Shown in pieces: positions 1 to 17,397 of a DNA stretch of 32,000 nucleotides. The translations under genes were made by a program, and so were the position numbers. How positions within the stretch are numbered: the first letter of the stretch is position 1; the number at the start of each line of letters is the position of its first letter. The stretch is from Phaeodactylibacter xiamenensis. Its GTDB lineage: Bacteria; Bacteroidota; Bacteroidia; Chitinophagales; Saprospiraceae. A model generated the notes under the pieces. The model was given only the letters and a program-made list of their open reading frames with translations, did no database searches and was not told the DNA's origin. Location of the stretch: contig NZ_JPOS01000020.1 of NCBI RefSeq assembly GCF_000759025.1, positions 218,883 to 250,882 on the forward strand, read 5' to 3'.

Positions 1-1
1 G

Positions 2-958: not shown

Positions 959-1111
959 AAGTGTGTCGTTTTGTTCAACTGCTTAAATATAGTTGATAAT
1001 TGGAAAGGCAAGCATAAATTTAGTTTTTAATTTTGCTTGCCCGGGCGGCGTGAAAAAAGAGCAATCTTTAAGATGTCCCACGCACACAATCTTTCCGGGC
1101 ATTCGGTTGTT

Positions 1112-1648
1112 ATGAACATTATGAAGCAATTGGTTTACATCTTCCTCACAGTGCTCATCTTCGCTGCCTGCCGCCGTGATAACCGGCAGCCGTTGTTTGA
1201 TTTGGCTTACCCGAATTTCCGCTTCACCATTCAAGCCGGTGAAAGCCCTGTGCTTCCGGGGGCTTACGCCATTCGCGGGGTGGCTACCAATATTAACTTC
1301 TTCCTCAACCAGAACAATACGGATACCTCGGCGATTTCTGAGGTGAGTGCCTACTCGGCAACCCTTCGGTGCCTGGATGGGTTTGATTATGTCTTTATGG
1401 AGGGGGTCTCGGTACGCATATGTGAAGATGGGACAGAAAACTGTACCCCTGCCGATGAAGTCTTCTACATCGATCAGCTGCAACGCTACCCTGAAGATGA
1501 CCGCATTGACCTGCTGCCCGGGCTGCGGAATGCCAAGCGGGATTTGTTCCGGGAGAGTGTCCGGCTGGAAATTGTTGTCTTCTTTGCCTATTCTCCACCT
1601 GCCAACTATGCTTCGCAACTGGATATGGTCTTCAGGGCCTACCGGTAA
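1112..1648 (+). CDS. Hypothetical lipoprotein
   Basis: Track ORF 1037-1648. An internal ATG at 1112 (or 1121) gives MNIMKQLVYIFLTVLIFAAC, a signal peptide with a lipobox-like FAAC. I recognise no family. The antisense ORF 983-1618 lacks any such features. Confidence 0.55.
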   Translation: MNIMKQLVYIFLTVLIFAACRRDNRQPLFDLAYPNFRFTIQAGESPVLPGAYAIRGVATNINFFLNQNNTDTSAISEVSAYSATLRCLDGFDYVFMEGVSVRICEDGTENCTPADEVFYIDQLQRYPEDDRIDLLPGLRNAKRDLFRESVRLEIVVFFAYSPPANYASQLDMVFRAYR

Positions 1649-4162: not shown

Positions 4163-4214
4163 CTCTTGGACGTAAGCTATATCTTTGTGGCCACTAATTC
4201 AACTCTTCGCGATA

Positions 4215-4820
4215 ATGTTATTGCCCTTTTTCGACAAAAATCAGATTGAAGCAGGCTGCGATGAAGCCGGGCGCGGCTGTCTTGCCGGGCCGGTCTTTGC
4301 AGCTGCTGTGATTTTACCAACAGATTTTGAGCACCCGTTGCTCAATGATTCCAAACAATTGTCAGAAAAACAGCGGTACGAAGCGCGTAAAATCGTCGAA
4401 GCCGAAGCCATTGCATGGGCTGTAGCGCAGGTGGCCCCAAAAGAAATCGATGAGATCAATATTCTCAACGCCTCCTTCCTGGCTATGCACCGGGCCATCG
4501 CTCAACTCGACCCCATACCGGAATGCCTGCTCATCGACGGCAACCGCTTCAAGCCTTATCAGGACCTGCCCCACCACTGCATCATCAAGGGGGATGGAAA
4601 GTACCTGTCGATCGCTGCCGCCTCCGTACTGGCCAAAACCTACCGCGACGACTATATGATGCAGATTCACGAAATGCACCCCCACTACGACTGGCACAAA
4701 AACAAAGGCTACCCCACCAAAGCACATCGGGCGGCTATACAGGCGCACGGGGCTACGCCACACCACCGGCAGTCGTTCCGCCTGCTGCCTAATGCGGAGC
4801 AGGGGCGGCTTTGGGCGTAG
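4215..4820 (+). CDS. rnhB: Ribonuclease HII
   Basis: [55 protein letters not shown] matches RNase HII catalytic motifs. The track ORF begins at a TTG (4185). ATG 4215 ([10 protein letters not shown]) is the more likely start. Confidence 0.9.
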
Positions 4821-4951
4821 GGTTTTGGTTGATTTCAGGGTAGCATGAGGTAACGTAGTATTTTGTCTTAGGCTGGAGCCAAAGGTTTAGGGCATTGCAT
4901 TGCAAAGCTTGAGGCACTATGCTCCGCTTCAATGCACCCAACTCCAGGCGC

Positions 4952-5060
4952 AACTTTCCCCCTCTGGAGGGGGGCAGGGGGAGGAACTTTCCCCCTCTGG
5001 CCGCTTTCGCTCAGTTGCTACAGCGCCGGGACAAGAGTGGGTAAGGGGGAGGAACTTTCC
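4952..5060. repeat. Short imperfect direct repeats, (GGGGGAGG)AACTTTCC(CCCTCTGG), three copies, with a small CCCCCT/AGGGGG hairpin
   Basis: AACTTTCCCCCTCTGG occurs at 4952-4967 and 4985-5000. GGGGGAGGAACTTTCC occurs at 4977-4992 and 5045-5060. The site is the intergenic region at the rnhB-proximal edge of the island. Confidence 0.6.
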
Positions 5061-5184
5061 TGAAAAAGGTTGACTTCCATAATTTACTCCAGAGCAGACT
5101 ATCCAAATAATCATCAGCCTCCCAATTTATAAATTAACAATGCTGATTCGTATATTTACACTCCAAGCACCAATCCACCATGAT

Positions 5185-7038
5185 ATGCCCCACTTAAGAT
5201 TACTGTTTTTTATCCTTTTACTGGCTAGCCTTTCCGATGGCCTACGCGCTCAGGCTACAGGCAACAACTACGCCCACTTCTTCTATGTCACCGACTTCCA
5301 GCCCGGTTGGGAAGACCTGCCGGAAACCGGGCGTGAAGCCCGCAATATTGGTCAGGTACTGGAAAGTGACTACAACTTCACCGTGCAGTACCACCGGGAG
5401 GTGGAAAAAGCAGACATCCTCCAGAAGATCGCCGAGATCAACAGCCGCAAATACGGCAAAAACGATCAGGTACTCTTCTTTTTCTCCATGCACGGCCACT
5501 TCGACAAATCCGCCGACCGCGGCTACCTCGTACCGGCAGATGGCAAAATACCCCGCCTTGACGCCTACGGGCAAACCTGGCTCAGCTACGACGACCTCGG
5601 CAGCTACATCACGAAAAATCCTGCCGAGCATGTCCTCCTCGCTCTTGATGCCTGCTACTCCGGTGCTTTTGGCGACCGCTACAAGGGCGCACCCGATGCC
5701 CTGCCCTGGGAAGGTGCAGGCGATTGTCAGCAGAAAGCCCAGTTAGCCCTGCAGCACGACAGCCGGCTGTACTTTTCCTCCGGCAGCCGGGAACAGCGCA
5801 CCCCAGCCAATTCCCTCTTCGCCAAAAAATGGCTGGAAGCCCTGCGCAACGGCGCCCGCACCGGTTTGGTCACCTCCCGCGACCTGCGCTACTACCTGGG
5901 CGGTATTTCCTACCCCACGCCCGAGGGCGGCTCTTTTACCAGCCGGCACGAGGCGGGCGGGGATTTTGTGTTTCTGCACCGCTCAGCTTGCCAGGGTAGC
6001 AACAGCAGTGATGGTACAGATGCCGCAGAGGAGCAGCTATGGGCACAGGCGCAGCGCCTGAAGACCAAGGAAGCCTACGCCTTTTACCTGCAAGCCTACC
6101 CCAATGGCCGCTACCGGGCGCAGGCGGAGGCGAAGATTAAAGTCTTTGAGCAGGGCGAGACTATAACGCCCTCCTCTACCACCCGCCGGCGCGACCTTCC
6201 GGATATGCTCTTCGTGGAAGGGGGGACTTTTCAGATGGGGAGCTCGGATAGTGATGCCGGCAGCGATGAAAAGCCGCATACGGTCACGGTGGATGACTTT
6301 TACCTGCATCGTTTTGAGGTGACGAATTCGGAGTTTGCCGAGTTTCTCAATGCCAAAGGGCGGCACGAATACAATGGAGCAGAATGGTACGATTTGGATG
6401 ACGAAGATGCCCGAATAGAGCAACGCAGCGGCACTTATACTACGAAAGGAAGCTATGGTAAACACCCGGTAACAGAGGTGACCTGGTACGGCGCAGTAGC
6501 TTACTGCAACTGGAAAAGTGAAGCATTGAACCTTCAGCCCGTGTACCGGATCAGCGGTACGAACGTAAGCGCGGACTGGAACGCGGATGGCTACCGCCTG
6601 CCTACGGAGGCGGAGTGGGAGTTTGCGGCGCGTAGCCGGGGAAAAGATTACAAGTATGCATGGGGTAATGGGAAACCCAATGGAAATATAGCAGATGAAA
6701 GTGCCAAAAAAGAGAATTCCGGATGGACTATTTGGGAAGGATACGATGACGGATATCCAGGTACGGCTCCTGTAGGAATGTTCGAGCAAGGTACACTAGG
6801 CTTTTCAGATTTATCCGGCAATGTCTGGGAGTGGTGTTGGGACTGGTACGATAGTGATTATTATAAAAACAGTCCCAGTCGTAACCCCCGTGGCCCCAGT
6901 ACGGGCTCTGGCCGGGTTCTACGGGGCGGCTCCTGGGGCCTCTTACCAGCCTTTCTGCGTTGTGCTTTTCGTTACTACTCCGCCCCCGGCCTTAGTAGCA
7001 ACTTCATAGGGTTTCGCCTCAGCAGGGCAGGTCGTTAG
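5185..7038 (+). CDS. DGR target protein 1: secreted caspase-like (peptidase C14) domain fused to an FGE-sulfatase / C-type-lectin-fold variable domain
   Basis: Signal peptide MPHLRLLFFILLLASLSDGLRAQA from ATG 5185. The caspase-type His/Cys dyad context is present (VLFFFSMHGH.. and LLALDACYSGAF). The C-terminal FGE-sulfatase motifs are FVEGGTFQMGS, HPVTEVTWYGAVAYCNW, YRLPTEAEWEFAARS, GNVWEWCWDWY, RGGSW..RCAFR..IGFRL. The last ~41 codons are VR1. Confidence 0.85.
   Translation: MPHLRLLFFILLLASLSDGLRAQATGNNYAHFFYVTDFQPGWEDLPETGREARNIGQVLESDYNFTVQYHREVEKADILQKIAEINSRKYGKNDQVLFFFSMHGHFDKSADRGYLVPADGKIPRLDAYGQTWLSYDDLGSYITKNPAEHVLLALDACYSGAFGDRYKGAPDALPWEGAGDCQQKAQLALQHDSRLYFSSGSREQRTPANSLFAKKWLEALRNGARTGLVTSRDLRYYLGGISYPTPEGGSFTSRHEAGGDFVFLHRSACQGSNSSDGTDAAEEQLWAQAQRLKTKEAYAFYLQAYPNGRYRAQAEAKIKVFEQGETITPSSTTRRRDLPDMLFVEGGTFQMGSSDSDAGSDEKPHTVTVDDFYLHRFEVTNSEFAEFLNAKGRHEYNGAEWYDLDDEDARIEQRSGTYTTKGSYGKHPVTEVTWYGAVAYCNWKSEALNLQPVYRISGTNVSADWNADGYRLPTEAEWEFAARSRGKDYKYAWGNGKPNGNIADESAKKENSGWTIWEGYDDGYPGTAPVGMFEQGTLGFSDLSGNVWEWCWDWYDSDYYKNSPSRNPRGPSTGSGRVLRGGSWGLLPAFLRCAFRYYSAPGLSSNFIGFRLSRAGR
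6902..7025 (+). repeat. DGR variable repeat 1 (VR1)
   Basis: Gapless alignment to TR 9051-9174. All 26 mismatches I counted lie at TR adenines, and every TR C/G/T position is identical. VR1 encodes GSGRVLRGGSWGLLPAFLRCAFRYYSAPGLSSNFIGFRLSR. Confidence 0.9.
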
Positions 7039-7050
7039 GTTTTAGTCTTT

Positions 7051-7296
7051 TTATTTTTTTACAGATTCCCTTAGGAGGGGCATGGCTCGTACGAGCCATG
7101 CCCCTCTTTCTATATATGGCCTATATGCACCAGCATATATAAGAGTGAAATGCATAAGGATATATTGAAAATTGGCACGGTATTTTCAGGAGTATAGGCG
7201 TATATATAGTCAGCATATATGGAATTACGAATCTTTACACTGCCGTTTGATGAGGTTTCGGAAGGTTTTCCGGATGAGATTATCACGCAGTTTTGC
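7051..7296 (+). repeat. Copy 1 of a ~245-bp duplicated post-VR segment (hairpin, AT-rich leader, 5' end of the HRDC gene)
   Basis: It aligns by eye at roughly 85-90% identity to 12991-13235. Shared pieces are TTAYTTTTTTACA, the GC hairpin, TATATATGGCCTATATGCAYCAGCATATATAA, CAGGAGTATAGGC, and ATGGAATTACGAATCTTYACACTG..GATGAGGTTTCGGAAGG..GAGATTATCACGCAG. Confidence 0.8.
7075..7106 (+). terminator. Perfect 14-bp GC-rich hairpin (loop GTAC), 50 nt downstream of VR1. Either a terminator of target 1 or a DGR target-site hairpin.
   Basis: GAGGGGCATGGCTC (7075-7088), GTAC, GAGCCATGCCCCTC (7093-7106). A homologous hairpin occurs downstream of VR2 at 13014-13043. Confidence 0.6.
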
Positions 7297-7710
7297 CAGA
7301 ATAAGAAGGTGTACAGCATGAAAACGCACTTTTTTGAAGAGGAAGGCCGGCACTTTTGGTCCGTTGCCGTGCAGTATGAAGTGGTGCTAAAGGGAGAAGA
7401 TAAAATACGGGCATTGGATGATGCGCAACAGCTGCTTTATGAGCGGCTCCGAGAATGGCGTAAGCAATACGCTGGAGATTTAGGTATCCCCGTATACCTG
7501 ATCGCTACAAATGCGCAGTTTTTGCAAATGATAAAGATGAAATGCAGAACGCTGGAGAGCTTAAAGCAAATAAAGGGTTTTGGCAGAAAACGGCTAACAA
7601 AATACGGAGCGCATATTACCAATATCATTAAAGACTTCTATGAGCGGGGCAAGCAGGTGCAATCCGAACAGGAAGCTGCTGGCAAAATAGATGATTTACC
7701 TTTTTCTTAA
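7219..7710 (+). CDS. HRDC-domain DGR accessory protein
   Basis: The C-terminal half, LYERLREWRKQYAGDLGIPVYLIATNAQFLQMIKMKCRTLESLKQIKGFGRKRLTKYGAHITNII, follows the RecQ/RNase D HRDC pattern (LR.wR...A...g.P.y.I.....L..m....P....eL..I.G.G..k...yG). It lies immediately upstream of avd and the RT. Confidence 0.8.
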   Translation: MELRIFTLPFDEVSEGFPDEIITQFCQNKKVYSMKTHFFEEEGRHFWSVAVQYEVVLKGEDKIRALDDAQQLLYERLREWRKQYAGDLGIPVYLIATNAQFLQMIKMKCRTLESLKQIKGFGRKRLTKYGAHITNIIKDFYERGKQVQSEQEAAGKIDDLPFS

Positions 7711-7720
7711 ACTCACACTC

Positions 7721-8065
7721 ATGGCACAACCTCAGGATTATCCGTTATTCAACCATTGGTATCAGACGACTGATTGGCTTTTGGAGCGCTGTGAGCGAAT
7801 GCCCAAACATACTCGCTTTACGGTGAGTGGGCGAATGGCCAATCTGGCGCTCGATACGGTAGAATTATTGCTCGAAGCTATTTATTCCCGCGAGCGTAAA
7901 GAGTTGATTAAAAAGATCAACATGAAGCTGGAAAAACTGCGGTTTTTCAACCGCCTCTGTAAGGACCGCTCGTATTTGAGTGTGACCCAATATGAGTTTT
8001 TGGCACGAGCCATCAATGAGTCCGGCAAAATGTGCGGCGCATGGGCAAAAAGTAGTCCGTCATGA
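7721..8065 (+). CDS. avd: Accessory variability determinant (Avd)-like four-helix-bundle protein
   Basis: 114 aa from ATG 7721: MAQPQDYPLFNHWYQTTDWLLERCERMPKHTRFTVSGRMANLALDTVELLLEAIYSRERKELIKKINMKLEKLRFFNRLCKDRSYLSVTQYEFLARAINESGKMCGAWAKS. Its size, predicted helicity, the P(K)xxRF motif, the basic patches, and translational coupling to the RT (ATGA overlap) all fit DGR Avd proteins. Confidence 0.75.
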   Translation: MAQPQDYPLFNHWYQTTDWLLERCERMPKHTRFTVSGRMANLALDTVELLLEAIYSRERKELIKKINMKLEKLRFFNRLCKDRSYLSVTQYEFLARAINESGKMCGAWAKSSPS

Positions 8066-9051
8066 AAAGATATGGGCAATTATTCGATGACTTTACCTGC
8101 TTTTCCAACTTGTTTTCCGCTTATAAGAAAGCCCGGAAGGGAGCTGTTGGAAAACCTTCAACTCAGCAATTTTCCTTTCAATTGGAGCCTGCTTTGTTAG
8201 AGCTGCAACAGGAATTAATCAACGGCAGGTATAAGCCAAGTGCTTATCGTTATTTCAAAATATTCGACCCTAAGGAGCGGATCATTTCCGTTGCTTCCTT
8301 CAAAGACAGAGTAGTGCATCATGCCTTAATCAATCTACTGGAACCGATCTACGAGCGTTGTTTCATACACGACAGTTATGCTACCCGTAAAGGGAAAGGC
8401 ACGCACTTAGCCATAAACCGGGCACAAGCCTTTATGAGGGGGCATCAATGGTTTTTGAAGACAGATATTGACAAATACTTTGATAGCATCAACCAACAAG
8501 TATTGATCGCACTACTCAATCGTAAAATTAAAGATCAGCGATTGTTGAGCGTAGCCAAGGGCATTATACAAAATGGCGGATCAAATGGGGTAGGCCTTCC
8601 TATTGGCAACCTAACCAGCCAATTCTTTGCGAATGTTTACCTCAACCCCTTCGACCACTTTGTAAAACAGCAGCTCAGCGCAAAATACGTCCGGTATATG
8701 GATGATTTTGTCTTGTTTTCAAAGAATAAAGAGACATTGAAAAGCTACAAAACAGCTATTGAAAGCTACCTTTCAGCGCAATTAAAACTGCACCTGAAAG
8801 AGAAAGCGACCTTCATCAACCAAGCGGCTAACGGGTTAACATTTCTTGGTCGAAGGATTTTTCCCAAGACAATAAGGATCGCCCGACCTAACGGCAAACG
8901 CATGTTACGCCGGATGAAAAGCAAAGAGCAAGTCTACAGAAAGGGAGGTTTAGATCAAGCTGCTTTTTTGCAAAGTATGAACAGCTACTGGGCACAGTTG
9001 CAACCTTTTTACGGATTAAGGCAGGAAATTTTACAAGGGCAGTCAGCATGA
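8062..9051 (+). CDS. DGR-type reverse transcriptase
   Basis: RT motifs are present: FKIFDPKERIISVASFKDRVVHHAL, the DGR-characteristic LPIGNLTSQFFANVYL ((I/L)GxxxSQ where group II intron RTs have QG..SP), and the catalytic RYMDDFVLF (YMDD). At 329 aa it is compact, with no maturase or endonuclease extension. Confidence 0.92.
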   Translation: MKRYGQLFDDFTCFSNLFSAYKKARKGAVGKPSTQQFSFQLEPALLELQQELINGRYKPSAYRYFKIFDPKERIISVASFKDRVVHHALINLLEPIYERCFIHDSYATRKGKGTHLAINRAQAFMRGHQWFLKTDIDKYFDSINQQVLIALLNRKIKDQRLLSVAKGIIQNGGSNGVGLPIGNLTSQFFANVYLNPFDHFVKQQLSAKYVRYMDDFVLFSKNKETLKSYKTAIESYLSAQLKLHLKEKATFINQAANGLTFLGRRIFPKTIRIARPNGKRMLRRMKSKEQVYRKGGLDQAAFLQSMNSYWAQLQPFYGLRQEILQGQSA

Positions 9052-9174
9052 GGGCTCTAACCGGGTTCAACGGGGCGGCTCCTGGAACAACAAACCAGCC
9101 AAACTGCGTTGTGCTAATCGTAACAACAACACCCCCGGCAATAGTAACAACAACATAGGGTTTCGCCTCAGCAA
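9051..9174 (+). repeat. DGR template repeat (TR)
   Basis: 124 nt containing 39 adenines. In the target frame it reads GSNRVQRGGSWNNKPAKLRCANRNNNTPGNSNNNIGFRLSN, with 9 AAC, 3 AAT and 2 AAA codons. It is identical to VR1 and VR2 at all non-A positions, apart from one T/G difference with VR2. No plausible ORF covers it. Confidence 0.9.
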
Positions 9175-9273
9175 TACAGTTAAAGTCTGAACAGTCAGCT
9201 CTACGGACATGGCTGCCGTACACGATCTGTCCCGCTGACTGTCCTGCACCCTTGAGGGTCAAATACAACTAGA

Positions 9274-9311
9274 AATGCATTGCTTGGTACGGAGACGGAA
9301 GAGCAGTGCAT
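9274..9311. terminator. Hairpin between the convergent DGR cassette and the minus-strand operon (probable bidirectional terminator)
   Basis: AATGCATTGC (9274-9283) pairs with GCAGTGCATT (9302-9311), 10 bp including one G-U. It is followed by CTTTCTC on the + strand. It lies 7 nt from the stop of the minus-strand gene ending at 9318. Confidence 0.5.
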
Positions 9312-9317
9312 TCTTTC

Positions 9318-10019
9318 TCACCCCCCCTTCCGAAAAAACGAAAACACAATCTGCCCCACGTAAGCCCCCAGCACACTCTCCACCAGCGCCAGCCAGGTAT
9401 TCATCTGTGCGAAGGAGAAGGCAGACTTGGCCTTCAGCTCAATGAAGAGGAGTAGGAGCAGCCCGTAGATGGGCAGCAAAAAATAAGAGAAGGTGACGAG
9501 CGGGCCCGAAATATACCGGGGCGGCTCCGGCCCTTTGTGGTGCTGCCGCAGGTAGTCGGCCACCATCACAGAGATGTAGGCGGCCAGAGCAGGGGCCAGC
9601 AAAGCCACGGTACCCTGGAATTGGTCATTGCTAAAGCCACCCGTGCTCCAGTGGTAGGACAGCCGCAGGATGACGGCTACCTTGATGAGGCACAAGAGGT
9701 AAAACAGGCGTTTCTTGAAAGTAGCCTCCGTGAGCAGGCGGCGCCGCTTTTTGCCGGGCGTGGGCTCATCCGGCAGGCGGCTCACCCAGTCGGTAAGGCT
9801 GTGGGTGATTTGGGCGTGGGCGCGGGAGTATTCCTCGTAAGAAATCAGCCCGGCGTTCCACTTCTCGTGGTGGTTCTGCGCACGACTGCCAAGTACCGTG
9901 AGGGCGTTGGCGATGTCGCTCAGCCCGGAGTACTCGGCGTATTCGAGGGCAGCGGCATTGGCGGCTTCAAGCTTGCCCTGCGTGATGAGCTGCCGGATGG
10001 AGGATTTGGTGTGGTCCAT
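9318..10019 (-). CDS. Hypothetical membrane protein: ~85-aa helical N-terminal domain plus about 4 predicted TM helices
   Basis: 233 aa. The N-terminal region is MDHTKSSIRQLITQGKLEAANAAALEYAEYS..LGSRAQNHHEKWNAGLISYEEYSRAHAQITHSLTDWVSRL. A basic linker (GKKRRRLL) follows, then hydrophobic segments LFYLLCLIKVAVILRL, GTVALLAPALAAYISVMVADYL, LVTFSYFLLPIYGLLLLLFIEL and WLALVESVLGAYVGQIVFSFF. It is 3 nt downstream of the preceding gene, so the two likely form an operon. Confidence 0.6.
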   Translation of the reverse strand: MDHTKSSIRQLITQGKLEAANAAALEYAEYSGLSDIANALTVLGSRAQNHHEKWNAGLISYEEYSRAHAQITHSLTDWVSRLPDEPTPGKKRRRLLTEATFKKRLFYLLCLIKVAVILRLSYHWSTGGFSNDQFQGTVALLAPALAAYISVMVADYLRQHHKGPEPPRYISGPLVTFSYFLLPIYGLLLLLFIELKAKSAFSFAQMNTWLALVESVLGAYVGQIVFSFFRKGG

Positions 10020-10022
10020 AAG

Positions 10023-11018
10023 CTAGGGGCGTTCCAGATAGCGCTTCAGGTCTTGCTGAAAGCGGTTGACGTAAGGGATGAGGAAGTCGTCTTCAAAGTC
10101 GGGCTCCATATCCATATAGCCGCTGCTGCGGGGCTTGTATACGCCGGAGCCGAATTTGCCCGTCAGGCTACCCGTGAGGAGGTAGCCGTCATCAGTGGGG
10201 GTGTAGTGGAAGGTGAACTCCAGGCGCTCCCGGCGCATATCGTTGCAGTCGCCCCACCACAGCTCCACGAAATCGCACCAGAGGGACTGCTCTTCGTCGG
10301 TTAACACTTCGCGGCAGAGGTCGGAGACGTGGAATTTGAGGACATATTCGTTATTGAAGTCGGTTTGTTCCACTTCGGGCTTTCGCTCTTCGCAGCCTTC
10401 CCGGGGCTGCTCATAGCGCTGCCGGGCGTAGCGCAGTACCGCATCGAAGACTTCTTGGCGGCTACGCTTTTTGTCAATAGCGACTTCGGATGTCCCCACC
10501 GCTTGCTCCACCCTGGGCAGCTCTACCGGGATATTGAGCGTCTGTGCTTTGCAGGCATTGATGCGTTTTTTTTGCTGTATGGCATTGTCAGCCTCCCATA
10601 TCCAGTAGTAGAAACAGGGGTTGTAACCACTGCCGGAAGCCGCCGGCAGGTACACCTGTATATTGCCCTGCGCGGGCGGAATTTCCATAAAGCGGACGAA
10701 GGTATAGTAGAGGGTTTCGTCCAGCGACTCGCCGTCTTCCTGCTCTGCCAGGGTTTGCTGCAGTTCGTTCCAAAGGGCAGCGCCTTCGTCGGGGTTGGTG
10801 GTGCGCAGGCTGAGCCACAGCTCCAGTTCCATGCCGTTTTTCGCCAGCTTGGCTTCATCTACTTTCAGCACTTGCCCGTAGCCTTTGGCATCGAGCCAGC
10901 GCTGGTAGAGGCGGGCTTTTTTGTTGAAAAAGTCGGCATCGTCGCCCAGGAATACCTGCGCGTGAGGCTCCAGAGGTAGGCACAAAAAAAGCAGCGATAA
11001 GAGGTATGGTATCTTCAT
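10023..11018 (-). CDS. Hypothetical secreted protein
   Basis: The track ORF runs 10023-11039 and starts at a TTG. ATG 11018 gives MKIPYLLSLLFLCLPLEPHAQ, a signal peptide. The protein is cysteine- and tryptophan-containing and acidic. I recognise no family. It is transcribed divergently from target 2. Confidence 0.6.
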   Translation of the reverse strand: MKIPYLLSLLFLCLPLEPHAQVFLGDDADFFNKKARLYQRWLDAKGYGQVLKVDEAKLAKNGMELELWLSLRTTNPDEGAALWNELQQTLAEQEDGESLDETLYYTFVRFMEIPPAQGNIQVYLPAASGSGYNPCFYYWIWEADNAIQQKKRINACKAQTLNIPVELPRVEQAVGTSEVAIDKKRSRQEVFDAVLRYARQRYEQPREGCEERKPEVEQTDFNNEYVLKFHVSDLCREVLTDEEQSLWCDFVELWWGDCNDMRRERLEFTFHYTPTDDGYLLTGSLTGKFGSGVYKPRSSGYMDMEPDFEDDFLIPYVNRFQQDLKRYLERP

Positions 11019-11138
11019 AACCATGGGGTTTGCTGCCAAATTACTGAATTTGTTATACTTGTTGCGGCTTCTCCCATCTTCAATTCGGCTCAGCCTGTAA
11101 TTTTTGTACTTTTACACAGTGTTCAAACCCTCTACGCT

Positions 11139-12891
11139 ATGACTTTACCCCGTTTTCTACCTTTAATGGTGCTGCTGTTTTTCAGCTACAGCCTTTCCGC
11201 CCAGTCCGCCCTGCGCGATGGCAAAGACTACGCCATTTTCTTCTACTGCACCTCCTTTGACCAAGGCTGGACATCCCTGCCGGAAACCGAAGAGGAGGTC
11301 AAAGCCATCGGTAACCTTTTGCAGTCGGACTACGGTTTTCAGCTCCACTACGTCAAGAACCCCAGCAAAGCAGACATCAAGGATGAAATCACGAAGTGGA
11401 ACGCCCGCGTACGCCCCAATGATCAGGTGCTCTACTTCTTCTCCACCCACGGCTACTACGACGCCGCTGCCGACGAGGGTTTCCTCGTTCCGCACAATGG
11501 AAAGCTGCGGGATACCTACGGCGATACCTGGCTGAGCTACGCCGAACTGGGCCGCCGGGTGACCAAAAGCAACAGCAAGCATGTGCTCCTGGCGCTCGAC
11601 GCCTGCTACTCCGGTGCCTTTGGCGACCGATACAAAGGCCAACCCGGTGGTACCCCCTGGGAAGCCGATGCAGACTGCGCCGATCAGGTAGAAAACGCCC
11701 TGTCGTACCCCACCCGCCGCTACTTTACATCCGGCAGCAAAAACCAACGAACCCCCGCCCGTTCCCTCTTCGCCCGCCGCTGGCTGACCGCCCTGCGACA
11801 GGGGCAGGAAAAAGGAGTCGTGCGTATCCGGGACTTACGCTACCACCTGGGTAGTATTCCCAATCCCAAGCCAGAGGATGGCTCCTTTACCGGGCATGAG
11901 GATGGTGGATTTGTTTTTGTGCACCGCTCGGCTTGTCAGGGTAGCGGCAGTGGTGGTACGGATGCCGCAGAGGAGCAGCTCTGGGCACAGGCGCAGCGAC
12001 TGAAGACGAAGGAAGCTTACGCTTTTTATCGGCAAGTGTACCCCAATGGCCGCTACCGGGCTCAGGCGGAGGCGAAGATCAAGGCCTTTGAGCGGGGCAA
12101 GACTATAACGCCCTCCTCTACCACCCGCCGGCGCGACCTGCCGGATATGATCTTCGTGGAAGGGGGCAGTTTTCAGATGGGGAGTAGCGATAGCGATGCG
12201 CATGATGATGAAATGCCCCATACGGTCACGGTGGATGACTTTTATATGCACCGCTTTGAGGTGACCTTTGAGGAATACGATCAGTTTTGCGAAGCAACCA
12301 GTCGGAAGAAGCCGGATGATGAAGGCTGGGGGCGTGGAAAGCGCCCGGTGATCCATGTGAGCTGGTACGATGCCGTAGCCTACTGCAACTGGAAGAGCAA
12401 ACAAGAAGGGCTACAGGAGGTATACCGAATTAGCGGTACAAGCGTGAGCGCGGACTGGAACGCCGATGGCTACCGCCTGCCTAACAGAGGCAGAGTGGGA
12501 ATTTGCGGCGCGCAGCCGTGGTGGCAATGATAAATGGGCGGGGACTTCTTCGGAGTCAGCTTTGTCCAATTATGCAAACTACTATGAAAGTGGCTCAAAG
12601 GGTGGCTACATGCAAACGGCACCGGTGGGTTCATTCCGAGCTAATAAGCTGGGCCTGCATGACATGAGCGGCAATGTCTGGGAGTGGTGCTGGGACTGGT
12701 ACGATAGCGATTACTATAAAAATAGCCCCAGTCGTAATCCCCGTGGCCCCAGTACGGGCTCTTACCGGGTTCAGCGGGGCGGCTCCTGGCGCGGCGAGCC
12801 AGCCCGACTGCGTTGTGCGTTTCGTCTCGGCGGCACCCCCGGCTATAGTAGCCTCTTCATAGGGTTTCGCCTCAGCAGGACCGCGGAATAG
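11139..12891 (+). pseudogene. DGR target 2: caspase-like :: FGE/CLec paralog, interrupted by a +1-nt frameshift near 12483-12484
   Basis: Track ORFs 11139-12530 and 12466-12891 are two frames of a single gene. Target 1 has CCTACGGAGGCGGAGTGGGAG (LPTEAEWEF). Here the sequence is CCTAACAGAGGCAGAGTGGGAA, and deleting one A restores LPTEAEWEFAARSRG. The signal peptide (MTLPRFLPLMVLLFFSYSLSAQS), the dyad context (FFSTHGYY, LLALDACYSGAF) and the FGE motifs are all retained. Confidence 0.8.
12755..12878 (+). repeat. DGR variable repeat 2 (VR2)
   Basis: Gapless alignment to the TR. Of the 27 mismatches I counted, 26 lie at TR adenines. The exception is TR T9115 versus G12819. VR2 encodes GSYRVQRGGSWRGEPARLRCAFRLGGTPGYSSLFIGFRLSR. 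Confidence 0.88.
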
Positions 12892-13013
12892 GCAGTGCTC
12901 CTGCCTTTCAGAAGATTCTGCGTCCCAGGGGGCGGGGCGTTAGATTTTATCTTTTCTCCGTCCGCTGAAGCCCTTTAGGGCGCAGGCGGGTTACTTTTTT
13001 ACAAAACAATCAG

Positions 13014-13043
13014 GAGGGCATGGCTCGAAAGGGTCATGCCCTC
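13014..13043 (+). terminator. GC-rich hairpin homologous to 7075-7106 (13-bp stem with two G-T/G-U pairs, GAAA loop)
   Basis: GAGGGCATGGCTC (13014-13026), GAAA, GGGTCATGCCCTC (13031-13043). Confidence 0.55.
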
Positions 13044-13155
13044 TTCCTATATATGGCCTATATGCATCAGCATATATAAAGGTGAAATGTATACGGATAT
13101 ATTGGAAATTGGCCCCTTCGTTTCAGGAGTATAGGCATATATATAGCCAGTATAT

Positions 13156-13235
13156 ATGGAATTACGAATCTTCACACTGTCCTTTGATGAGGTTTCGGAA
13201 GGAGTTCCGATGAGATTATCACGCAGTAGTTTTGC
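13156..13235 (+). pseudogene. Remnant of the 5' end of an HRDC accessory gene
   Basis: ATGGAATTACGAATCTTCACACTGTCCTTTGATGAGGTTTCGGAAGGAGTTCCGATGAGATTATCACGCAG matches 7219-7290. It has a 1-nt deletion (GGAGTTCC-GATGAG versus GGTTTTCCGGATGAG). Similarity ends after ~80 nt, and no avd, RT or TR follows. Confidence 0.7.
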
Positions 13236-13430
13236 TTTGCTGCTGAGAAGCGCTGTAAGATTGGGAATGGGAGGAGGCGTCAGGGGGGCATCTCCTGAAT
13301 AGGGTCGATTCCTAGCCCCCACCAGACGCTTGCGCCACAGCTGGCTGCAGCGTAGGGGCACGTGGGAGACGCGTTGTTCGTGGCGCTGGGAACGGGGAGT
13401 AAAGTATGGTCCTTGGCTTTTGGGTAAAAT

Positions 13431-13471
13431 GTGGAGACAGCAGGCACTTTTAAAGTTCCTGCTGTCTCCAC
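13431..13471 (-). terminator. Rho-independent-type terminator of mnmG
   Basis: A perfect 14-bp stem: GTGGAGACAGCAGG (13431-13444) pairs with CCTGCTGTCTCCAC (13458-13471). It directly abuts the mnmG stop codon (13472-13474). A short T-run (ATTTTACCC) follows on the minus strand. Confidence 0.7.
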
Positions 13472-15337
13472 CTACCGCCCCATATGCACCAGCAGGACCG
13501 AAATATCCGCCGGAGAAACTCCGCTGATCCGGCTCGCCTGGCCCACCGTTTCCGGGCGGATTTGGGATAGCTTTTCGCGGGCCTCCTTGGAGAGGGAGGT
13601 CAGCTGCTCGTAGTCCAGGTTGTCGAAAAGGCGGACATTTTCCAGGCGGTTCATCTTATCGGCCCGCTCGCGCTCCCGCTCAATGTAGCCCTCGTACTTC
13701 ATATCCGTCTCGGCCGTCTCTATAAACTCAGGCTCATAGTTGCCCAGGAACTCATCCAGGGCAGGAAGTACGGTGCGCAGCCCGGCAATATCCACATGCG
13801 GGCGCAGGAGCAGGCTGTGCAGCTTCACTTTTTGCGAGAGCGGCTGCGAACCCAGGCTGTCCAGGTAGCGGTTGACTTCACCAGGCTCCACGCTGAGCTT
13901 GCGGGCAAATTTACTGATGGCTTCACCAGCTTCCTGCTTGGCCAGTACGCGCTGCATGCGCTCTTCCGCACCTTGGATGCCCAGCTCTTGTGCCAGTGGC
14001 GTCAGACGGAGGTCGGCATTGTCTTGCCGGAGCAGGATGCGGTACTCTGCCCGGGAGGTAAACATGCGGTAGGGCTCCTTGGTGCCTTTGTTGACCAGGT
14101 CGTCGATGAGCACACCGATGTAGCCATCGGAGCGGCGCAGCACAAATGGCGCTTCCTCCCTGATGGAAAGGTGGGCATTGATACCGGCGATCAGTCCCTG
14201 ACAGCCGGCCTCTTCGTAACCGGTGGTGCCATTGATCTGTCCGGCGAAGTAAAGGCGGTCGACGAGCTTGGTTTCCAGCGTAAGCTTCAGCTGCGTAGGC
14301 TGGAAGAAGTCGTATTCGATGGCATAGCCCGGGCGGAACATCTTGGCATTTTCAAAACCCCGGATTTTCCGCAGTGCTTTGTACTGCACATCCTCCGGCA
14401 GGGAGGACGAAAAGCCATTGACATAAATCTCAACGGTATTCCAACCCTCGGGCTCTACAAAAAGCTGATGCCGGTCGCGGTCAGCAAAGCGGTCGATTTT
14501 ATCTTCGATGGAAGGGCAGTAGCGTGGCCCCAGGCCCTGAATGCGCCCGTTGAACATAGGGGAGCGGTCAAAGCCTTCCTTCAGCGTGTCGTGCACCTCC
14601 TGACTCGTGTAGGCAATGTGGCAGGGGCGCTGTTTTTTCAGCGTTGGAGTATCGGTGTAGGAAAACTTGCCCGGATCTTCATCACCGGGTTGTTCCTCCA
14701 GTTGCGACCAGTCGATAGAGCGGCCGTCGAGGCGGGGTGGGGTACCGGTTTTCATGCGGCCGGCTTCGAAGCCCAGCTCCACGAGTTGTTCGGTGATACC
14801 CTTGGAAGCACGTTCGCCCGCCCGGCCACCACCGAATTGCTTTTCACCGATGTGGATAATGCCGTTGAGGAAAGTGCCATTGGTCAGGATGACTGCCTTT
14901 GCGGGGATTTCCAACCCCAGGCTTGTATGCACACCGGTTGCCCGGCCGTCTTTCACCACAATACCTGTGACCATTTCCTGCCAGAAGTCGATGTTAGGGT
15001 GCTGCTCCAGCAACTCGCGCCATTTGGCTGCAAAGAGCATACGGTCGCTTTGGGCCCGCGGGCTCCACATAGCCGGCCCTTTGGAGCGGTTGAGCATGCG
15101 GAACTGCACCATCGTGTGGTCGGTCACAATACCGGAGTAACCACCCAGGGCGTCAATCTCCCGTACAATCTGACCCTTAGCCACCCCGCCCATAGCCGGA
15201 TTGCAGGACATCTGCGCGATGGTATTCATATTCATAGTGGCGAGCATCACTTTGGAGCCGAGGTTAGCTGCTGCTACTGCGGCTTCGCATCCGGAGTGCC
15301 CGGCACCCACTACAATCACATCGTATTCTGGAAACAT
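13472..15337 (-). CDS. mnmG: tRNA uridine 5-carboxymethylaminomethyl modification enzyme MnmG (GidA)
   Basis: [66 protein letters not shown].. carries the FAD-binding GxGxxG and is canonical MnmG sequence throughout. The start is taken at ATG 15337 rather than the upstream extension to 15394. Confidence 0.95.
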
Positions 15338-15489
15338 AATCGTTATCGGTCTTGTAAATTTCGGACTTGCAAAAGTACGGTATTCGCTTGACAATCAACA
15401 GTACAGCCCGGATTTTCGTTCAATCTGCCGTTCTGGCAATCCGAAAGGCAAAGTTGGGGTTGAAGAACAGCGCCCTTTGTCAAGGCACC

Positions 15490-16047
15490 TTAATTTTTCC
15501 ACTTAATATTGCAGCCCGTGCTAGGGTACTGCTGCTCTGGTGGCGGGTCGCCGGCAAGCAGGTGGTCGAGGGCAGCCCGGAGGTCTTCGCCAGTCAGGGG
15601 CACATCGTTGTTGGGGCGGGAGCCATCGAGGCGGCCCCGGTAGTAAAGTTTGCCGCGCCCATTGAATACAAAAATATCCGGGGTACAGGCGGCATCGTAA
15701 GCTTTCGCTACTTCCTGCGTCTTGTCATAAAGGTAGGGGAAGGGGTAGCCCACTTTAGCAGCCGTCTTTTTCATTGCCTCCGGCCCATCCTGAGGATACT
15801 GCACGGCATCGTTAGAGCTAATAGCGGCAAAGCCAATCCCTTTTTTCTTGTAGGCATTGGCGAGGCGCACTAATTCCGGGTTAACGTGGATCACATAGGG
15901 GCAGTGGTTGCAAAGGAAAAAGATGACTGTGCCATGGGGCGATTCCACGTCCCCCAGCTGAACGGTCTCTCCGGTCACGGTGTCTTCCAGACTAAAGTTG
16001 GGCGCTACAGTACCCAGTTGCATCATTTTTGATTCAGTAAATGCCAT
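15490..16047 (-). CDS. Thioredoxin-fold (AhpC/TSA-redoxin-like) protein with a CxxC motif
   Basis: 185 aa. The sequence GTVAPNFSLEDTVTGETVQL..GTVIFFLCNHCPYV..GFAAISSND..YPFPYLYDKTQEVAKAY.A.CTPDIFVF is a typical thioredoxin-family fold with a CNHC redox motif. Confidence 0.75.
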   Translation of the reverse strand: MAFTESKMMQLGTVAPNFSLEDTVTGETVQLGDVESPHGTVIFFLCNHCPYVIHVNPELVRLANAYKKKGIGFAAISSNDAVQYPQDGPEAMKKTAAKVGYPFPYLYDKTQEVAKAYDAACTPDIFVFNGRGKLYYRGRLDGSRPNNDVPLTGEDLRAALDHLLAGDPPPEQQYPSTGCNIKWKN

Positions 16048-16123
16048 ATATTCGTTGCTTTGTTATAAGAAAGCCGGAAGGCGCACTTTTGTTTGGAGCA
16101 GAGCGGCGGGTATGAAGAGAAAT

Positions 16124-16157
16124 AAAAAAAGCTGACCCCGGGTTAAGGAGGTCAGCT
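16124..16157 (-). terminator. Rho-independent-type terminator on the minus strand, ~75 nt upstream of the thioredoxin-like gene
   Basis: The minus strand reads AGCTGACC-TCCTTAACCCGG-GGTCAGCT followed by TTTTTTT (the + strand A-run at 16124-16130). Confidence 0.6.
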
Positions 16158-16557
16158 ATCTGAGAATAAATTCTCACTAGATGTTAGTGCCTGTGTACCA
16201 AATCATTTTGGTACTTCCTGGAAAATTAGACATCACAAGCTGAAATTCAGGATTCTCTGTCTACTCCCTCTTACTCTTTTCGATCTTTTTAGATCAATGG
16301 TAAAACGAAGTTACTGTGCATATCCGTTTTATGCGGAGGAAGCAAGGAGCTGATAGAATTCAGCAATTCAGAAACCCTTGTCTCAAGTAATCAAAAGAAA
16401 TAAAAAAGTTTTTGTGTGTGTTTTTGTTTGAGTTTAATCGCTGTTTAAACCCCGTATTTCTGTTGCAATGTCAATTATTACGTGCAAATAAAGGAAAAAG
16501 ACATCAGTATGATATACAAAATATCAACTTTTGTGACATGGGAAACGGGTATTTATT

Positions 16558-17391: not shown

Positions 17392-17397
17392 AAAGTG

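What the first reader, a model, noticed from the sequence alone, without database searches (positions are those of the whole stretch)
6902..12878. Complete DGR: one template repeat matches two variable repeats with adenine-only substitutions
I hand-aligned TR 9051-9174 (124 nt, 39 A) against VR1 6902-7025 and VR2 12755-12878, without gaps.
- All 26 TR/VR1 mismatches fall on TR adenines.
- 26 of 27 TR/VR2 mismatches fall on TR adenines. The exception is T9115 versus G12819.
- All other C/G/T positions are identical.

In the target reading frame the three sequences read:
- TR: GSNRVQRGGSWNNKPAKLRCANRNNNTPGNSNNNIGFRLSN (9 AAC, 3 AAT, 2 AAA codons)
- VR1: GSGRVLRGGSWGLLPAFLRCAFRYYSAPGLSSNFIGFRLSR
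- VR2: GSYRVQRGGSWRGEPARLRCAFRLGGTPGYSSLFIGFRLSR

The scaffold residues RGGSW, RCA.R and IGFRL are invariant. The last ~20 nt (CATAGGGTTTCGCCTCAGCA) contain 4 adenines unchanged in both VRs, and homology breaks right after them. That is what an IMH-like 3' boundary would look like.

An RT with the DGR signature IGNLTSQ plus YMDD lies immediately upstream of the TR. Adenine-specific TR-to-VR mutagenic retrohoming with AAC-rich TRs is the established DGR hallmark. VR1 and VR2 differ from each other at many of the same A positions, which implies independent diversification events.
Basis: partly seen in the sequence, partly recalled or inferred. Interest (0 to 1): 0.9.

Follow-up and report, generated by a model that had tools for sequence, protein, structure and literature searches.

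The report
Active diversity-generating retroelement with one retired target
This is a genuine, currently active diversity-generating retroelement in the marine bacterium Phaeodactylibacter xiamenensis that rewrites the binding tip of an exported caspase-lectin protein; it is a textbook example of a known system, not a new kind.

Summary
The observation reproduces exactly. TR 9052-9173 matches VR1 6903-7024 and VR2 12756-12877. Every mismatch falls on a TR adenine (24/24 and 24/25; P about 1e-15 to 1e-16).

The cassette is complete:
- target 1 (Peptidase_C14 plus FGE-type lectin domain, VR1 at its C-terminus)
- HRDC protein
- Avd (NCBIfam DivGenRetAVD, above cut-off)
- RT, whose best solved relative is Bordetella phage bRT (IGNLTSQ and YMDD present)
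- TR

Evidence of activity comes from assembly comparison. Two other assemblies of the same organism are identical to the window over 17-19 kb except inside VR1. There, all 22 and 20 substitutions sit at TR-adenine positions.

VR2 is different. Its gene carries a 1-nt frameshift, 111 nt replace a conserved 24-nt flank just after VR2, and it has one non-adenine change. It is identical in all three assemblies, so it is probably a retired target. A related strain (L088) has this gene intact, and its VR2 follows its own TR.

RNA helices flanking the TR match the cPRT-Stop and stem-loop elements described for phage BPP-1, and they covary across related loci.

This is a new member of a known kind, of modest interest.

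The parts
5140..7038 (+). Target gene 1, the variable protein. It has an N-terminal signal-peptide-like segment, a Peptidase_C14 (caspase) domain with HGH and DACYSG motifs, and a C-terminal FGE-sulfatase/C-type-lectin domain. The start is probably 5185 (617 aa, WP_044219577.1).
   Evidence: Pfam: FGE-sulfatase 7.6e-66, Peptidase_C14 7e-10. PDB hits: FGE 1.6e-30, TvpA 2y3c 2.2e-24. Name and organism. Motifs.
6903..7024 (+). VR1, the active variable repeat. It encodes the last ~40 residues of target 1.
   Evidence: 24/24 mismatches to the TR fall at TR-A. It differs at 22 TR-A positions in L001, and at 20 TR-A positions plus a 1-nt deletion in L006, while the flanks are identical.
7075..7106 (.). 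Perfect 16+16 nt G+C-rich palindrome, 50 nt after VR1. It could be the target-gene terminator, a DGR target-site hairpin, or both.
   Evidence: the repeat finder I1. It is retained with compensatory changes in the 86%-identical orthologue L007. Several independent contigs end next to it.
7219..7710 (+). HRDC-domain accessory protein (163 aa).
   Evidence: Pfam HRDC 2e-14. Homologues occupy the same position in 77 of 107 related RT loci.
7721..8065 (+). Avd accessory protein (114 aa; an alternative start at 7691 gives 124 aa).
   Evidence: NCBIfam NF033474 DivGenRetAVD, 98.7 bits against a cut-off of 80. Pfam bAvd 5e-15. Gene call.
8062..9051 (+). DGR reverse transcriptase (329 aa, WP_044219580.1).
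   Evidence: Best PDB hit is 8ub7_A (bRT) at 3.6e-48 and 167.9 bits over the full length. IGNLTSQ and YMDD are conserved and invariant in 23 relatives.
9036..9047 (+). Upstream strand (AGGGCAGUCAGC) of the long-range helix that closes the TR into a loop. It is the counterpart of the BPP-1 'cPRT Stop' avd:Sp duplex.
   Evidence: MFE folds. The same geometry occurs with different sequences in related DGRs; cis against trans P=3e-14. The element is described in the preprint read.
9052..9173 (+). Template repeat (TR), 122 nt, 37 A, rich in AAC codons.
9176..9230 (+). Hairpin domain after the TR, closed by ACAG(9176-9179):CUGU(9227-9230). It contains a stem-loop at 9192-9215 with a UACG tetraloop (9202-9205), comparable to the Avd-binding stem-loop of BPP-1.
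   Evidence: RNAalifold on 20 loci: 9 pairs, 8 with compensatory changes. Closing helix cis against trans P=4e-4. Single-sequence fold.
9231..9245 (+). Junction CCC (part of the conserved UGUCC[A/C] motif) followed by the downstream strand GCUGACUGUCCU (9234-9245) of the TR-closing helix. That strand begins 61 nt after the TR end; the BPP-1 equivalent is Sp59-70.
   Evidence: comparison
9248..9265 (+). Small stem-loop ACCC-UUGA-GGGU followed by CAAAUA. It corresponds to the stem-loop plus adenosines of the cPRT Stop element.
   Evidence: Fold. L008 carries the compensatory AUCC/GGAU. Analogous stem-loop plus ACAAAUA sequences are visible in the relatives aligned.
9318..10019 (-). EAD11-domain protein (233 aa) with four hydrophobic, TM-like segments.
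   Evidence: Pfam EAD11 4.5e-19. Hydropathy. It is always paired with the next gene in relatives.
10023..11018 (-). Uncharacterised protein with a signal-peptide-like N-terminus (331 aa; the ORF is open to 11039). No Pfam or NCBIfam family.
   Evidence: 95 homologue clusters; every hit that carries a source name is a hypothetical protein, nearly all from Saprospiraceae/Lewinellaceae-type Bacteroidota.
11139..12891 (+). Target gene 2, a paralogue of target 1 (60% aa identity once repaired). It is split into two ORFs (11139-12530 and 12466-12891) by one extra A at 12483/12484, so it is probably a pseudogene.
   Evidence: The frameshift is present in all three P. xiamenensis assemblies and absent in L088.
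12756..12877 (+). VR2, a formerly diversified repeat that now appears static.
   Evidence: 24 of 25 mismatches fall at TR-A; the exception is T9115 against G. It is identical in three assemblies.
12880..12990 (+). 111 nt that replace the conserved 24-nt flank GCAGGTCGTTAGGTTTTAGT.. immediately 3' of VR2. Net insertion is about 87 nt; it contains a terminator-like hairpin at 12920-12940.
   Evidence: No other copy in any sequence held.
12991..13227 (+). Remnant of the target-HRDC intergenic region plus the first ~70 nt of an HRDC gene. It is 86% identical to 7051-7291.

Best explanation
The region is a chromosomal diversity-generating retroelement of Phaeodactylibacter xiamenensis (Bacteroidota). 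Its order is target 1(VR1) - HRDC - Avd - RT - TR.

Proposed mechanism:
1. The RT operon transcript carries the TR.
2. A 12-bp helix closes the TR into a loop. One strand is the last codons of the RT gene (9036-9047); the other lies 61-72 nt after the TR (9234-9245).
3. A structured 3' domain sits between the TR and that helix: a stem-loop with a UACG tetraloop, then a UGUCC junction.
4. By analogy with phage BPP-1, the RT-Avd complex self-primes near the 3' junction, copies the TR while misincorporating opposite adenines, and stops at the helix.
5. The cDNA replaces VR1, guided by the invariant 3' 20 nt that TR and VR share.
6. This recodes about 14 codons (AAC, AAT, AAA) in the ligand-binding face of the C-terminal lectin domain of an exported caspase-like protein.

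VR1 is being diversified now. VR2 was diversified in the past but sits in a frameshifted gene with a disrupted 3' flank, and it is probably no longer used.

Shown: the adenine-only pattern, the component identities, VR1 turnover between assemblies, TR-to-VR concerted change in a related strain, and covarying RNA helices.

Inferred: the priming site, the stop site, the integration mechanism, the export and function of the target, and the cause of VR2's stasis.
For: Adenine-only mismatches:
- VR1 24/24 (P=2e-16) and VR2 24/25 (P=5e-15).

Components:
- Avd scores above the DGR-Avd equivalog cut-off.
- HRDC, RVT_1, and FGE-sulfatase plus Peptidase_C14 are detected by Pfam.
- The RT's best solved relative is bRT (8ub7_A) at 167.9 bits, against 99 bits for group II RTs. 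The IGNLTSQ and YMDD motifs are present and invariant in relatives.
- 53 of 80 related RT loci also carry adenine-biased TR/VR pairs. In most of them the TR lies just downstream of the RT and a VR about 2 kb upstream.

Activity:
- L001 (GCA_024742295.1) differs from the window at 22 positions in 19,051 bp. All 22 are in VR1 at TR-A sites.
- L006 (GCA_046290285.1) differs by 20 substitutions plus one gap in 17,009 bp, all in VR1.
- 7 of the 22 L001 bases occur in neither the TR nor VR2, so chimeric assembly cannot account for them.

TR-to-VR information flow:
- In L088 the TR has 6 non-A differences from the window's TR. The L088 VR2 carries all 6 and differs from its own TR only at 16 adenines.

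RNA elements:
- TR-closing helix, cis against trans P=3e-14, with conserved geometry.
- Stem-loop with 8 of 9 pairs covarying.
- Closing helix P=4e-4.
- Single-sequence folds agree.
- The elements match the BPP-1 description.

VR2 decay:
- Frameshift.
- Flank replacement.
- One non-A change.
- Identity across three assemblies.
Against: - No biochemical or read-level data were available. Activity is inferred from three consensus assemblies.
- The L006 VR1 allele has a 1-nt deletion that truncates the protein. It could be a consensus artefact from a mixed population, which would mean MAG consensus sequences in this region are not fully reliable.
- I could not detect a significant contiguous TR 3'-end:spacer duplex like the BPP-1 TR117-129:Sp47-56 duplex (P=0.76). 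The covarying helix I found begins 2-3 nt after the TR/VR homology ends, so the priming geometry may differ from BPP-1.
- The whole-region fold is not more stable than shuffles (z=-0.83).
- VR2's stasis rests on only three assemblies.
Confidence: 0.93

Rival explanations
1. Both VR1 and VR2 remain retrohoming targets. VR2 is identical in the three assemblies only by chance or sampling, and the frameshift is irrelevant to targeting.
For: - VR2 still has the intact 122-nt homology, including the invariant 3' 20 nt.
- Its non-A positions are 84/85 identical to the TR, although the two target genes are only 75-85% identical in DNA. Homing therefore occurred after the duplication.
- DGR homing does not require an intact ORF (established knowledge of DGRs).
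Against: - VR1 differs in all three assemblies while VR2 is unchanged.
- The 24-nt flank conserved after VR1 (window and L007) and after the L088 VR2 is replaced by 111 nt directly after VR2.
- VR2 carries one non-adenine change.
Confidence: 0.2
2. The DGR is a relic with no current activity. The VR1 alleles are old standing polymorphism exchanged between strains by recombination.
For: No direct activity measurement exists. Many catalogued DGRs are degenerate, as in the loci described in the paper read.
Against: - There are zero substitutions in 17-19 kb of flanking DNA, against 20-22 in 122 nt, all at TR-A sites.
- All protein components are intact.
- The RNA elements are conserved.
Confidence: 0.04
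3. The inter-assembly VR1 differences are assembly artefacts: chimeras of the three 122-nt repeats, or consensus calls from mixed reads.
For: - Two of the three assemblies are MAGs.
- L006 has a suspicious 1-nt deletion in VR1.
- Contigs from other samples break next to VR1.
Against: - 7 of the 22 L001 differences are bases present in neither the TR, nor VR2, nor the window's VR1.
- Errors would not be confined to TR-A positions.
- A mixed-read consensus would itself imply population heterogeneity at VR1.
Confidence: 0.03
4. The RT belongs to a group II intron, retron or Abi/DRT system, and the repeats are ordinary paralogous gene segments.
For: NCBIfam has no DGR-RT model here. The best NCBIfam hit is the group II intron RT model at 162.6 bits, below its cut-off of 300.
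Against: - bRT is the best solved relative by 68 bits.
- The DGR motif IGNLTSQ is present.
- Avd is adjacent.
- No matches reached the gathering threshold in the Rfam scan, so no group II intron RNA was found.
- The mismatches are adenine-only.
Confidence: 0.01

Closest known systems
Bordetella phage BPP-1 DGR (mtd-avd-TR-brt)
   Same: - Adenine-specific TR-to-VR mutagenesis.
- RT of the same clade (8ub7_A, 3.6e-48) and an Avd partner.
- VR at the C-terminus of a C-type-lectin-fold protein.
- A TR bracketed by an upstream:downstream RNA duplex, followed by a stem-loop and adenosines. The downstream strand begins 61 nt after the TR, against Sp59 in BPP-1.
   Different: - Chromosomal rather than phage-borne. 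Flanking genes include RNase HII, MnmG/GidA, an AhpC-type peroxiredoxin and VanY.
- Gene order is target-HRDC-avd-RT-TR, so the upstream strand of the duplex lies in the RT gene rather than in avd.
- There is an extra HRDC protein.
- The target is an FGE-type lectin fused to a caspase domain, not a tail fibre.
- The covarying helix at the primer position starts just after the TR/VR homology rather than inside it.
Treponema denticola TvpA DGR (Architecture C and target category b of Wu et al. 2018, PMC5758913)
   Same: - An HRDC-containing cassette.
- The VR lies in an FGE-sulfatase-type C-type lectin domain (TvpA 2y3c, 2.2e-24; classification).
- The FGE catalytic cysteine loop is replaced by variable residues.
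   Different: - An N-terminal Peptidase_C14 domain is fused to the lectin domain.
- The host is a Bacteroidota species.
- Avd and HRDC are both present.
- There is a second, decayed target.
DGR-diversified putative antigen sensors of conflict systems in multicellular bacteria (Kaur et al. 2020, PMC7159879; the PNAS 2024 paper PMC10907252)
   Same: - FGS/CLec variable domains are combined with caspase-like peptidase domains.
- Effector-associated (EAD) adaptor genes lie next to the targets.
- Duplicated targets and degenerate loci occur.
   Different: - No STAND, MoxR or vWA NTPase component was found in the window.
- The target has a signal-peptide-like N-terminus.
- The partner genes are an EAD11 protein with four TM-like segments and an uncharacterised secreted-looking protein.
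- Only one EAD11 copy was detected.

Membership tests
Diversity-generating retroelement (DGR) | TR/VR repeat pair whose differences are confined to TR adenines | tested here: met
   VR1 24/24 and VR2 24/25 in the core 9052-9173; P=2e-16 and 5e-15.
Diversity-generating retroelement (DGR) | Reverse transcriptase of the DGR clade with the [I/L]GxxxSQ motif and YxDD | tested here: met
   Best solved relative is bRT 8ub7_A at 167.9 bits, against 99 bits for group II and at most 26.5 bits for chains named as retron Ec78/St85 RTs. IGNLTSQ and YMDD are present and invariant in 23 relatives. No formal phylogeny was built.
Diversity-generating retroelement (DGR) | Accessory variability determinant (Avd), or HRDC, adjacent to the RT | tested here: met
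   NF033474 DivGenRetAVD at 98.7 bits against a cut-off of 80. HRDC 2e-14.
Diversity-generating retroelement (DGR) | VR at the 3' end of a target ORF encoding a C-type-lectin (or Ig) fold ligand-binding domain | tested here: met
   FGE-sulfatase 7.6e-66 ends at residue 627 of 632. TvpA and FGE hits cover the VR. This rests on sequence only; no structure was predicted.
Diversity-generating retroelement (DGR) | Invariant 3' end of VR and TR (IMH / IMH*-like) that sets the direction of transfer | tested here: inconclusive
   The last 20 nt are identical in the TR and all VR alleles, despite 4 adenines. Directly after them the TR reads AUACAG and the VRs read GGGCAG. Function was not tested, and no G+C-only 14-mer as in BPP-1 is present.
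Diversity-generating retroelement (DGR) | Structured RNA around the TR: an upstream:downstream 'cPRT Stop' duplex, plus a stem-loop just after the TR | tested here: met
   P=3e-14; 8 of 9 pairs covary; description. Computational evidence only.
Diversity-generating retroelement (DGR) | Ongoing diversification of the VR in populations | tested here: met
   VR1: three different alleles in three otherwise identical assemblies. VR2: not met, identical in all three.
Diversity-generating retroelement (DGR) | Adenine-mutagenic cDNA synthesis and retrohoming demonstrated biochemically or genetically | not testable with these tools
   Requires a culture, RT mutants, and cDNA or amplicon sequencing.
EAD-linked NTPase conflict systems (Kaur et al. 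2020) | Core NTPase (STAND, MoxR-vWA or GTPase) plus paired copies of the same EAD on the core and the effector | tested here: not met
   Only one EAD11 domain and no NTPase were found in the window, nor in the four neighbourhoods anchored on homologues of the 331-aa gene. A partner elsewhere in the genome is not excluded.
Formylglycine-generating enzyme (catalytic FGE) | Catalytic cysteine pair (CxxxxC loop) in the C-terminal region | tested here: not met
   The alignment to FGEs shows the cysteine loop replaced by a shorter, VR-encoded segment. This is a binding domain, not an enzyme.

The most novel reading that the evidence does not exclude
The DGR may tune the recognition domain of an exported caspase-like protease. 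That protease belongs to a conserved, undescribed three-gene module found mostly in Saprospiraceae/Lewinellaceae-type Bacteroidota: a secreted ~330-aa protein, an EAD11 protein with four membrane segments, and a caspase-lectin protein. This would be an envelope-located sensor-protease system, for conflict or programmed cell death, that works without the NTPase core of the known EAD systems. The window would also hold a natural on/off pair of targets. VR2 would be switched off by the sequence replacement immediately 3' of the repeat, which would point to a flank requirement for retrohoming.
Probability: 0.25. Interest if true: 0.55.

Novelty: new member of a known kind. Interest (0 to 1): 0.3.

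Why it matters
The organism, Phaeodactylibacter xiamenensis, has RefSeq (WP_) protein records, as distinct from the two MAGs. It carries a complete chromosomal DGR with direct comparative evidence of recent activity. The two targets behave differently, one turning over and one frozen, so the requirements for target recognition could be tested by repairing the frozen one.

The cassette also extends the RNA architecture solved for phage BPP-1 to a clade with a different gene order (RT before TR). In this clade both ends of the TR/VR homology coincide with predicted RNA helices.

None of this changes the current understanding of DGRs. It adds a well-documented example and a candidate model system.

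Tried and rejected
1. A degenerate VR pattern search of JGI metagenomes found nothing, so no extra VR alleles came from there.

2. The Rfam and tRNA scans of the window were empty. There is no described RNA family for the TR flank and no integration-site tRNA.

3. I first considered a local hairpin at 9191-9199/9234-9242. I rejected it because L088 and L008 carry changes that break it but preserve both the long-range helix and the 9192-9215 stem-loop.

4. A test for a contiguous duplex between the TR 3' end and the spacer, as in BPP-1 TR117-129:Sp47-56, gave no signal (P=0.76).

5. The whole-region fold z-score is not significant.

6. The 111-nt segment after VR2 has no other copy in any sequence held, so a MITE or a DGR-RNA origin could not be shown.

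7. A search of phage records gave only relatives at or below 41% identity. GC content is unremarkable. There is no sign of a prophage.

8. Literature searches for Phaeodactylibacter together with DGR or retroelement found nothing.

9. Structure prediction was not run, because sequence matches to FGE and TvpA were already decisive.

Full report
**Observation.**
- TR against VR1 gives 26 mismatches, all at TR adenines.
- TR against VR2 gives 27 mismatches: 26 at adenines, plus T9115 against G.
- The two terminal positions (9051, 9174) carry the same non-TR base in every VR allele, so they are flank, not mutagenised sites.
- The core repeat is therefore 9052-9173 (122 nt, 37 A). It has 24/24 adenine mismatches for VR1 and 24/25 for VR2 (hypergeometric P=2e-16 and 5e-15).
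- A pattern made from the TR with its adenines set to N hits exactly these three sites, against none in shuffles.
- The variable adenines sit mainly at codon positions 1 and 2 of AAC, AAT and AAA codons.

**Anatomy.** The plus strand carries, in order:
- Target gene 1 (5140/5185-7038), with Peptidase_C14 and FGE-sulfatase domains and VR1 at its C-terminus.
- An HRDC protein (7219-7710).
- Avd (7721-8065), which passes NCBI's DGR-Avd equivalog cut-off.
- An RT (8062-9051).
- The TR, which begins right after the RT stop codon.

Two genes follow on the minus strand: an EAD11-domain protein with four hydrophobic segments (9318-10019) and an uncharacterised protein with a signal-peptide-like N-terminus (10023-11018). 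A second target gene (11139-12891) then returns to the plus strand. It has the same domain architecture as target 1 but is split into two ORFs.

Exact protein matches identify the organism as Phaeodactylibacter xiamenensis (WP_044219577.1, WP_044219580.1). The surrounding genes include housekeeping functions: RNase HII, MnmG/GidA, an AhpC-type peroxiredoxin, VanY and a class I Glu/Gln-type tRNA synthetase. GC content is unremarkable.

**Is the RT a DGR RT?**
- Its best solved relative is 8ub7_A, at 167.9 bits (E=3.6e-48) over the full length. The best group II intron RT scores 99 bits, and chains named as retron Ec78/St85 RTs score at most 26.5 bits.
- The residue numbering of that chain (D138, Q187, D215, D216) matches the Bordetella phage bRT described in the preprint read.
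- The DGR signature GLPIGNLTSQ and the YMDD box are present, and they are invariant in 23 relatives.
- Of 80 related RT loci fetched from species-representative genomes (41-82% identity), my adenine-bias finder located TR/VR pairs in 53. In most of them the TR lies 0-150 nt downstream of the RT and a VR about 2.2 kb upstream. Many of the remaining loci are short contigs or have the RT close to a contig end.
- Homologues of HRDC, Avd and the target occur in 77, 85 and 72 of 107 loci respectively.

**Activity.** Two other public assemblies carry the identical RT.
- L001 (GCA_024742295.1) aligns to window 1-19051 with 22 mismatches and no gaps. All 22 are in VR1, and every one is at a TR-adenine position.
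- L006 (GCA_046290285.1) aligns over 17,009 bp with 20 mismatches and one gap, all in VR1. Nothing else differs.
- Seven of the 22 L001 bases occur in neither the TR, nor VR2, nor the window's VR1. Chimeric assembly of the repeats therefore cannot explain them.
- A fourth VR1 allele comes from an 86%-identical orthologue (L007).

One caveat applies. The L006 allele has a 1-nt deletion that truncates the protein to 607 aa. This may be a real defective allele or a consensus artefact from a mixed population.

**VR2 is different.**
- Its gene has one extra A (CCTAACAGAGG at 12483/12484). Target 1 reads CCTACGGAGG and L088 reads CCTACAGAGG at the same place.
- The frameshift and VR2 itself are identical in all three P. 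xiamenensis assemblies.
- VR2 holds the only non-adenine mismatch.
- Directly after VR2, 111 nt replace a conserved 24-nt flank (GCAGGTCGTTAGGTTTTAGT..). That flank follows VR1 in the window and in L007, and it follows VR2 in L088.
- Beyond that segment, 12991-13227 is 86% identical to 7051-7291, which includes the first ~70 nt of the HRDC gene. The second target locus therefore contains a truncated copy of a target-HRDC junction.
- In the related marine-metagenome contig L088 (RT 88% identical), target 2 is an intact ORF. Its VR2 differs from its own TR at 16 positions, all adenines, and it carries all six non-adenine differences that distinguish the L088 TR from the window's TR.

That last point is direct evidence of TR-to-VR information flow at this second site in a sister lineage. 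In the window, the non-adenine positions of VR1 and VR2 are 84/85 identical, whereas the genes are only 75-85% identical in DNA. My reading is that VR2 was a working target and is now retired in P. xiamenensis. With only three assemblies this is suggestive rather than proven, and I give the alternative that VR2 is still targetable a confidence of 0.2.

**RNA elements.**
- *TR-closing helix.* Folding predicts a 12-bp helix between AGGGCAGUCAGC (9036-9047, inside the RT 3' end) and GCUGACUGUCCU (9234-9245). It closes the TR into a loop.
  - I searched the best stem between the 40 nt upstream and the 160 nt downstream of the TR in 48 related DGRs. Cis pairs scored far above trans pairs (24.3 against 18.7, P=3e-14).
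  - The sequences differ between loci, for example GGCGAAUUAUCU/AGAUAAUUUGCC and GGGCAACAGUCG/CGACUGUUGUCC.
  - The geometry is conserved: the upstream strand starts 14-19 nt before the TR and the downstream strand 58-72 nt after it. 20 of 47 loci pass strict criteria.
  - This corresponds to the 'cPRT Stop' avd:Sp duplex of BPP-1 (avd369-379:Sp59-70), which the authors also predicted in 207 other DGRs.
- *Stem-loop.* RNAalifold on 20 loci finds a stem-loop at 9192-9215 capped by a UACG tetraloop. Eight of its nine pairs have compensatory changes. It fits the description of the Avd-binding stem-loop.
- *Closing helix of the 3' domain.* A further helix, ACAG(9176-9179):CUGU(9227-9230), closes this domain and also covaries (P=4e-4). 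It leaves CC(A/C) as a junction directly before the downstream strand.
- *Post-duplex stem-loop.* After the duplex comes a small stem-loop (9248-9259) followed by CAAAUA. L008 has a compensatory change in it.
- *Agreement with the repeat boundaries.* The TR/VR homology starts 4 nt after the upstream strand and ends 2-3 nt before the first spacer helix. Both repeat boundaries therefore coincide with predicted RNA structure.
- *What is not settled.* A BPP-1-style duplex between the TR's own 3' end and the spacer was not detected. The exact priming nucleotide is therefore inference. The four invariant adenines in the last 20 nt may be either not copied or not transferred.

**The target and its neighbours.**
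- The VR-encoded segment aligns with the region of true FGEs that holds the catalytic cysteine loop, and it lacks that loop. As in TvpA, this is a binding domain.
- The caspase domain keeps its HG[H/Y] and DACYSG motifs in both paralogues.
- The N-termini look like Sec signal peptides. This is by inspection only.
- The 331-aa gene has 95 homologue clusters. Every hit that carries a source name is a hypothetical protein, nearly all from Saprospiraceae/Lewinellaceae-type Bacteroidota, and none has a Pfam domain.
- In all four neighbourhoods examined, that gene is followed by an EAD11 gene. In three of the four, caspase-FGE genes lie adjacent, with no RT within 8 kb.
- In two distant DGR loci (L019, L026) the order is 331-aa homologue, then EAD11, then a caspase-FGE target with a VR, all on one strand.
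- The DGR therefore diversifies a member of a conserved three-gene module.
- EADs are adaptor domains of conflict systems. However, neither an NTPase core nor a second EAD11 copy was found here, so membership of those systems is not established.

**Comparison and novelty.** In the scheme of Wu et al. 2018 this is an Architecture C (HRDC-containing) DGR with a category b (FGE-type CLec) target. Caspase-like and FGS combinations and EAD neighbours have been noted for DGR-linked conflict systems. No paper in the searchable library mentions a DGR in Phaeodactylibacter. I file it as a new member of a known kind: a real, complete and active DGR, not surprising to a specialist. Its useful extras are documented turnover, an apparently retired second target, and a clear RNA map.

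Noticed in passing
window 9318-11018 (minus strand); L019 5054-8807; L026 4978-9004; L115-L118: A conserved gene pair, a ~330-aa signal-peptide-bearing protein with no known domain followed by an EAD11 protein with four TM-like segments, lies next to caspase-FGE genes in Saprospiraceae/Lewinellaceae-type Bacteroidota. This holds with or without a nearby DGR. It looks like an undescribed three-gene module.
   Followed up: partly
window 12880-12990: 111 nt of unknown origin replace a conserved 24-nt flank immediately 3' of VR2. The segment contains a terminator-like hairpin at 12920-12940 and changes the last residues of the protein from RAGR to RTAE. No other copy was found in any sequence held.
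   Followed up: partly
L006 about 11720-11725 (equivalent to window ~6997): The VR1 allele of GCA_046290285.1 has a 1-nt deletion at a TR-adenine position, giving a premature stop (607-aa protein). It could be a real defective allele or a MAG consensus artefact.
   Followed up: partly
window 7075-7141 and 13014-13078: Both target genes are followed by the same pair of elements: a G+C-rich hairpin, then an AT-rich inverted repeat TATATATG(15)CATATATA. The hairpin is a perfect 16+16 palindrome after VR1 and only a 9-bp stem after VR2. Independent contigs from other samples start just past the palindrome (L002 at 7077, L008 at 7109, L088 at 7124).
   Followed up: partly
window 9174-9179 against 7026-7031: Just beyond the perfect homology the TR reads AUACAG and the VRs read GGGCAG (fixed in VR1, in the L007 VR1 and in the L088 VR2). 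This may be an IMH/IMH*-like pair of directionality determinants, and it overlaps the first spacer helix.
   Followed up: no
window 24589-31770: A 2393-aa protein with Ig-like, HYR and PKD repeats and a C-terminal CHU_C type IX secretion signal, probably a large surface adhesin. It appears unrelated to the DGR.
   Followed up: no
window 9175-9317: The 143-nt non-coding stretch after the TR is more conserved in L088 and L008 (about 92-97%) than the cassette as a whole (86-92%). This is consistent with a functional RNA.
   Followed up: yes
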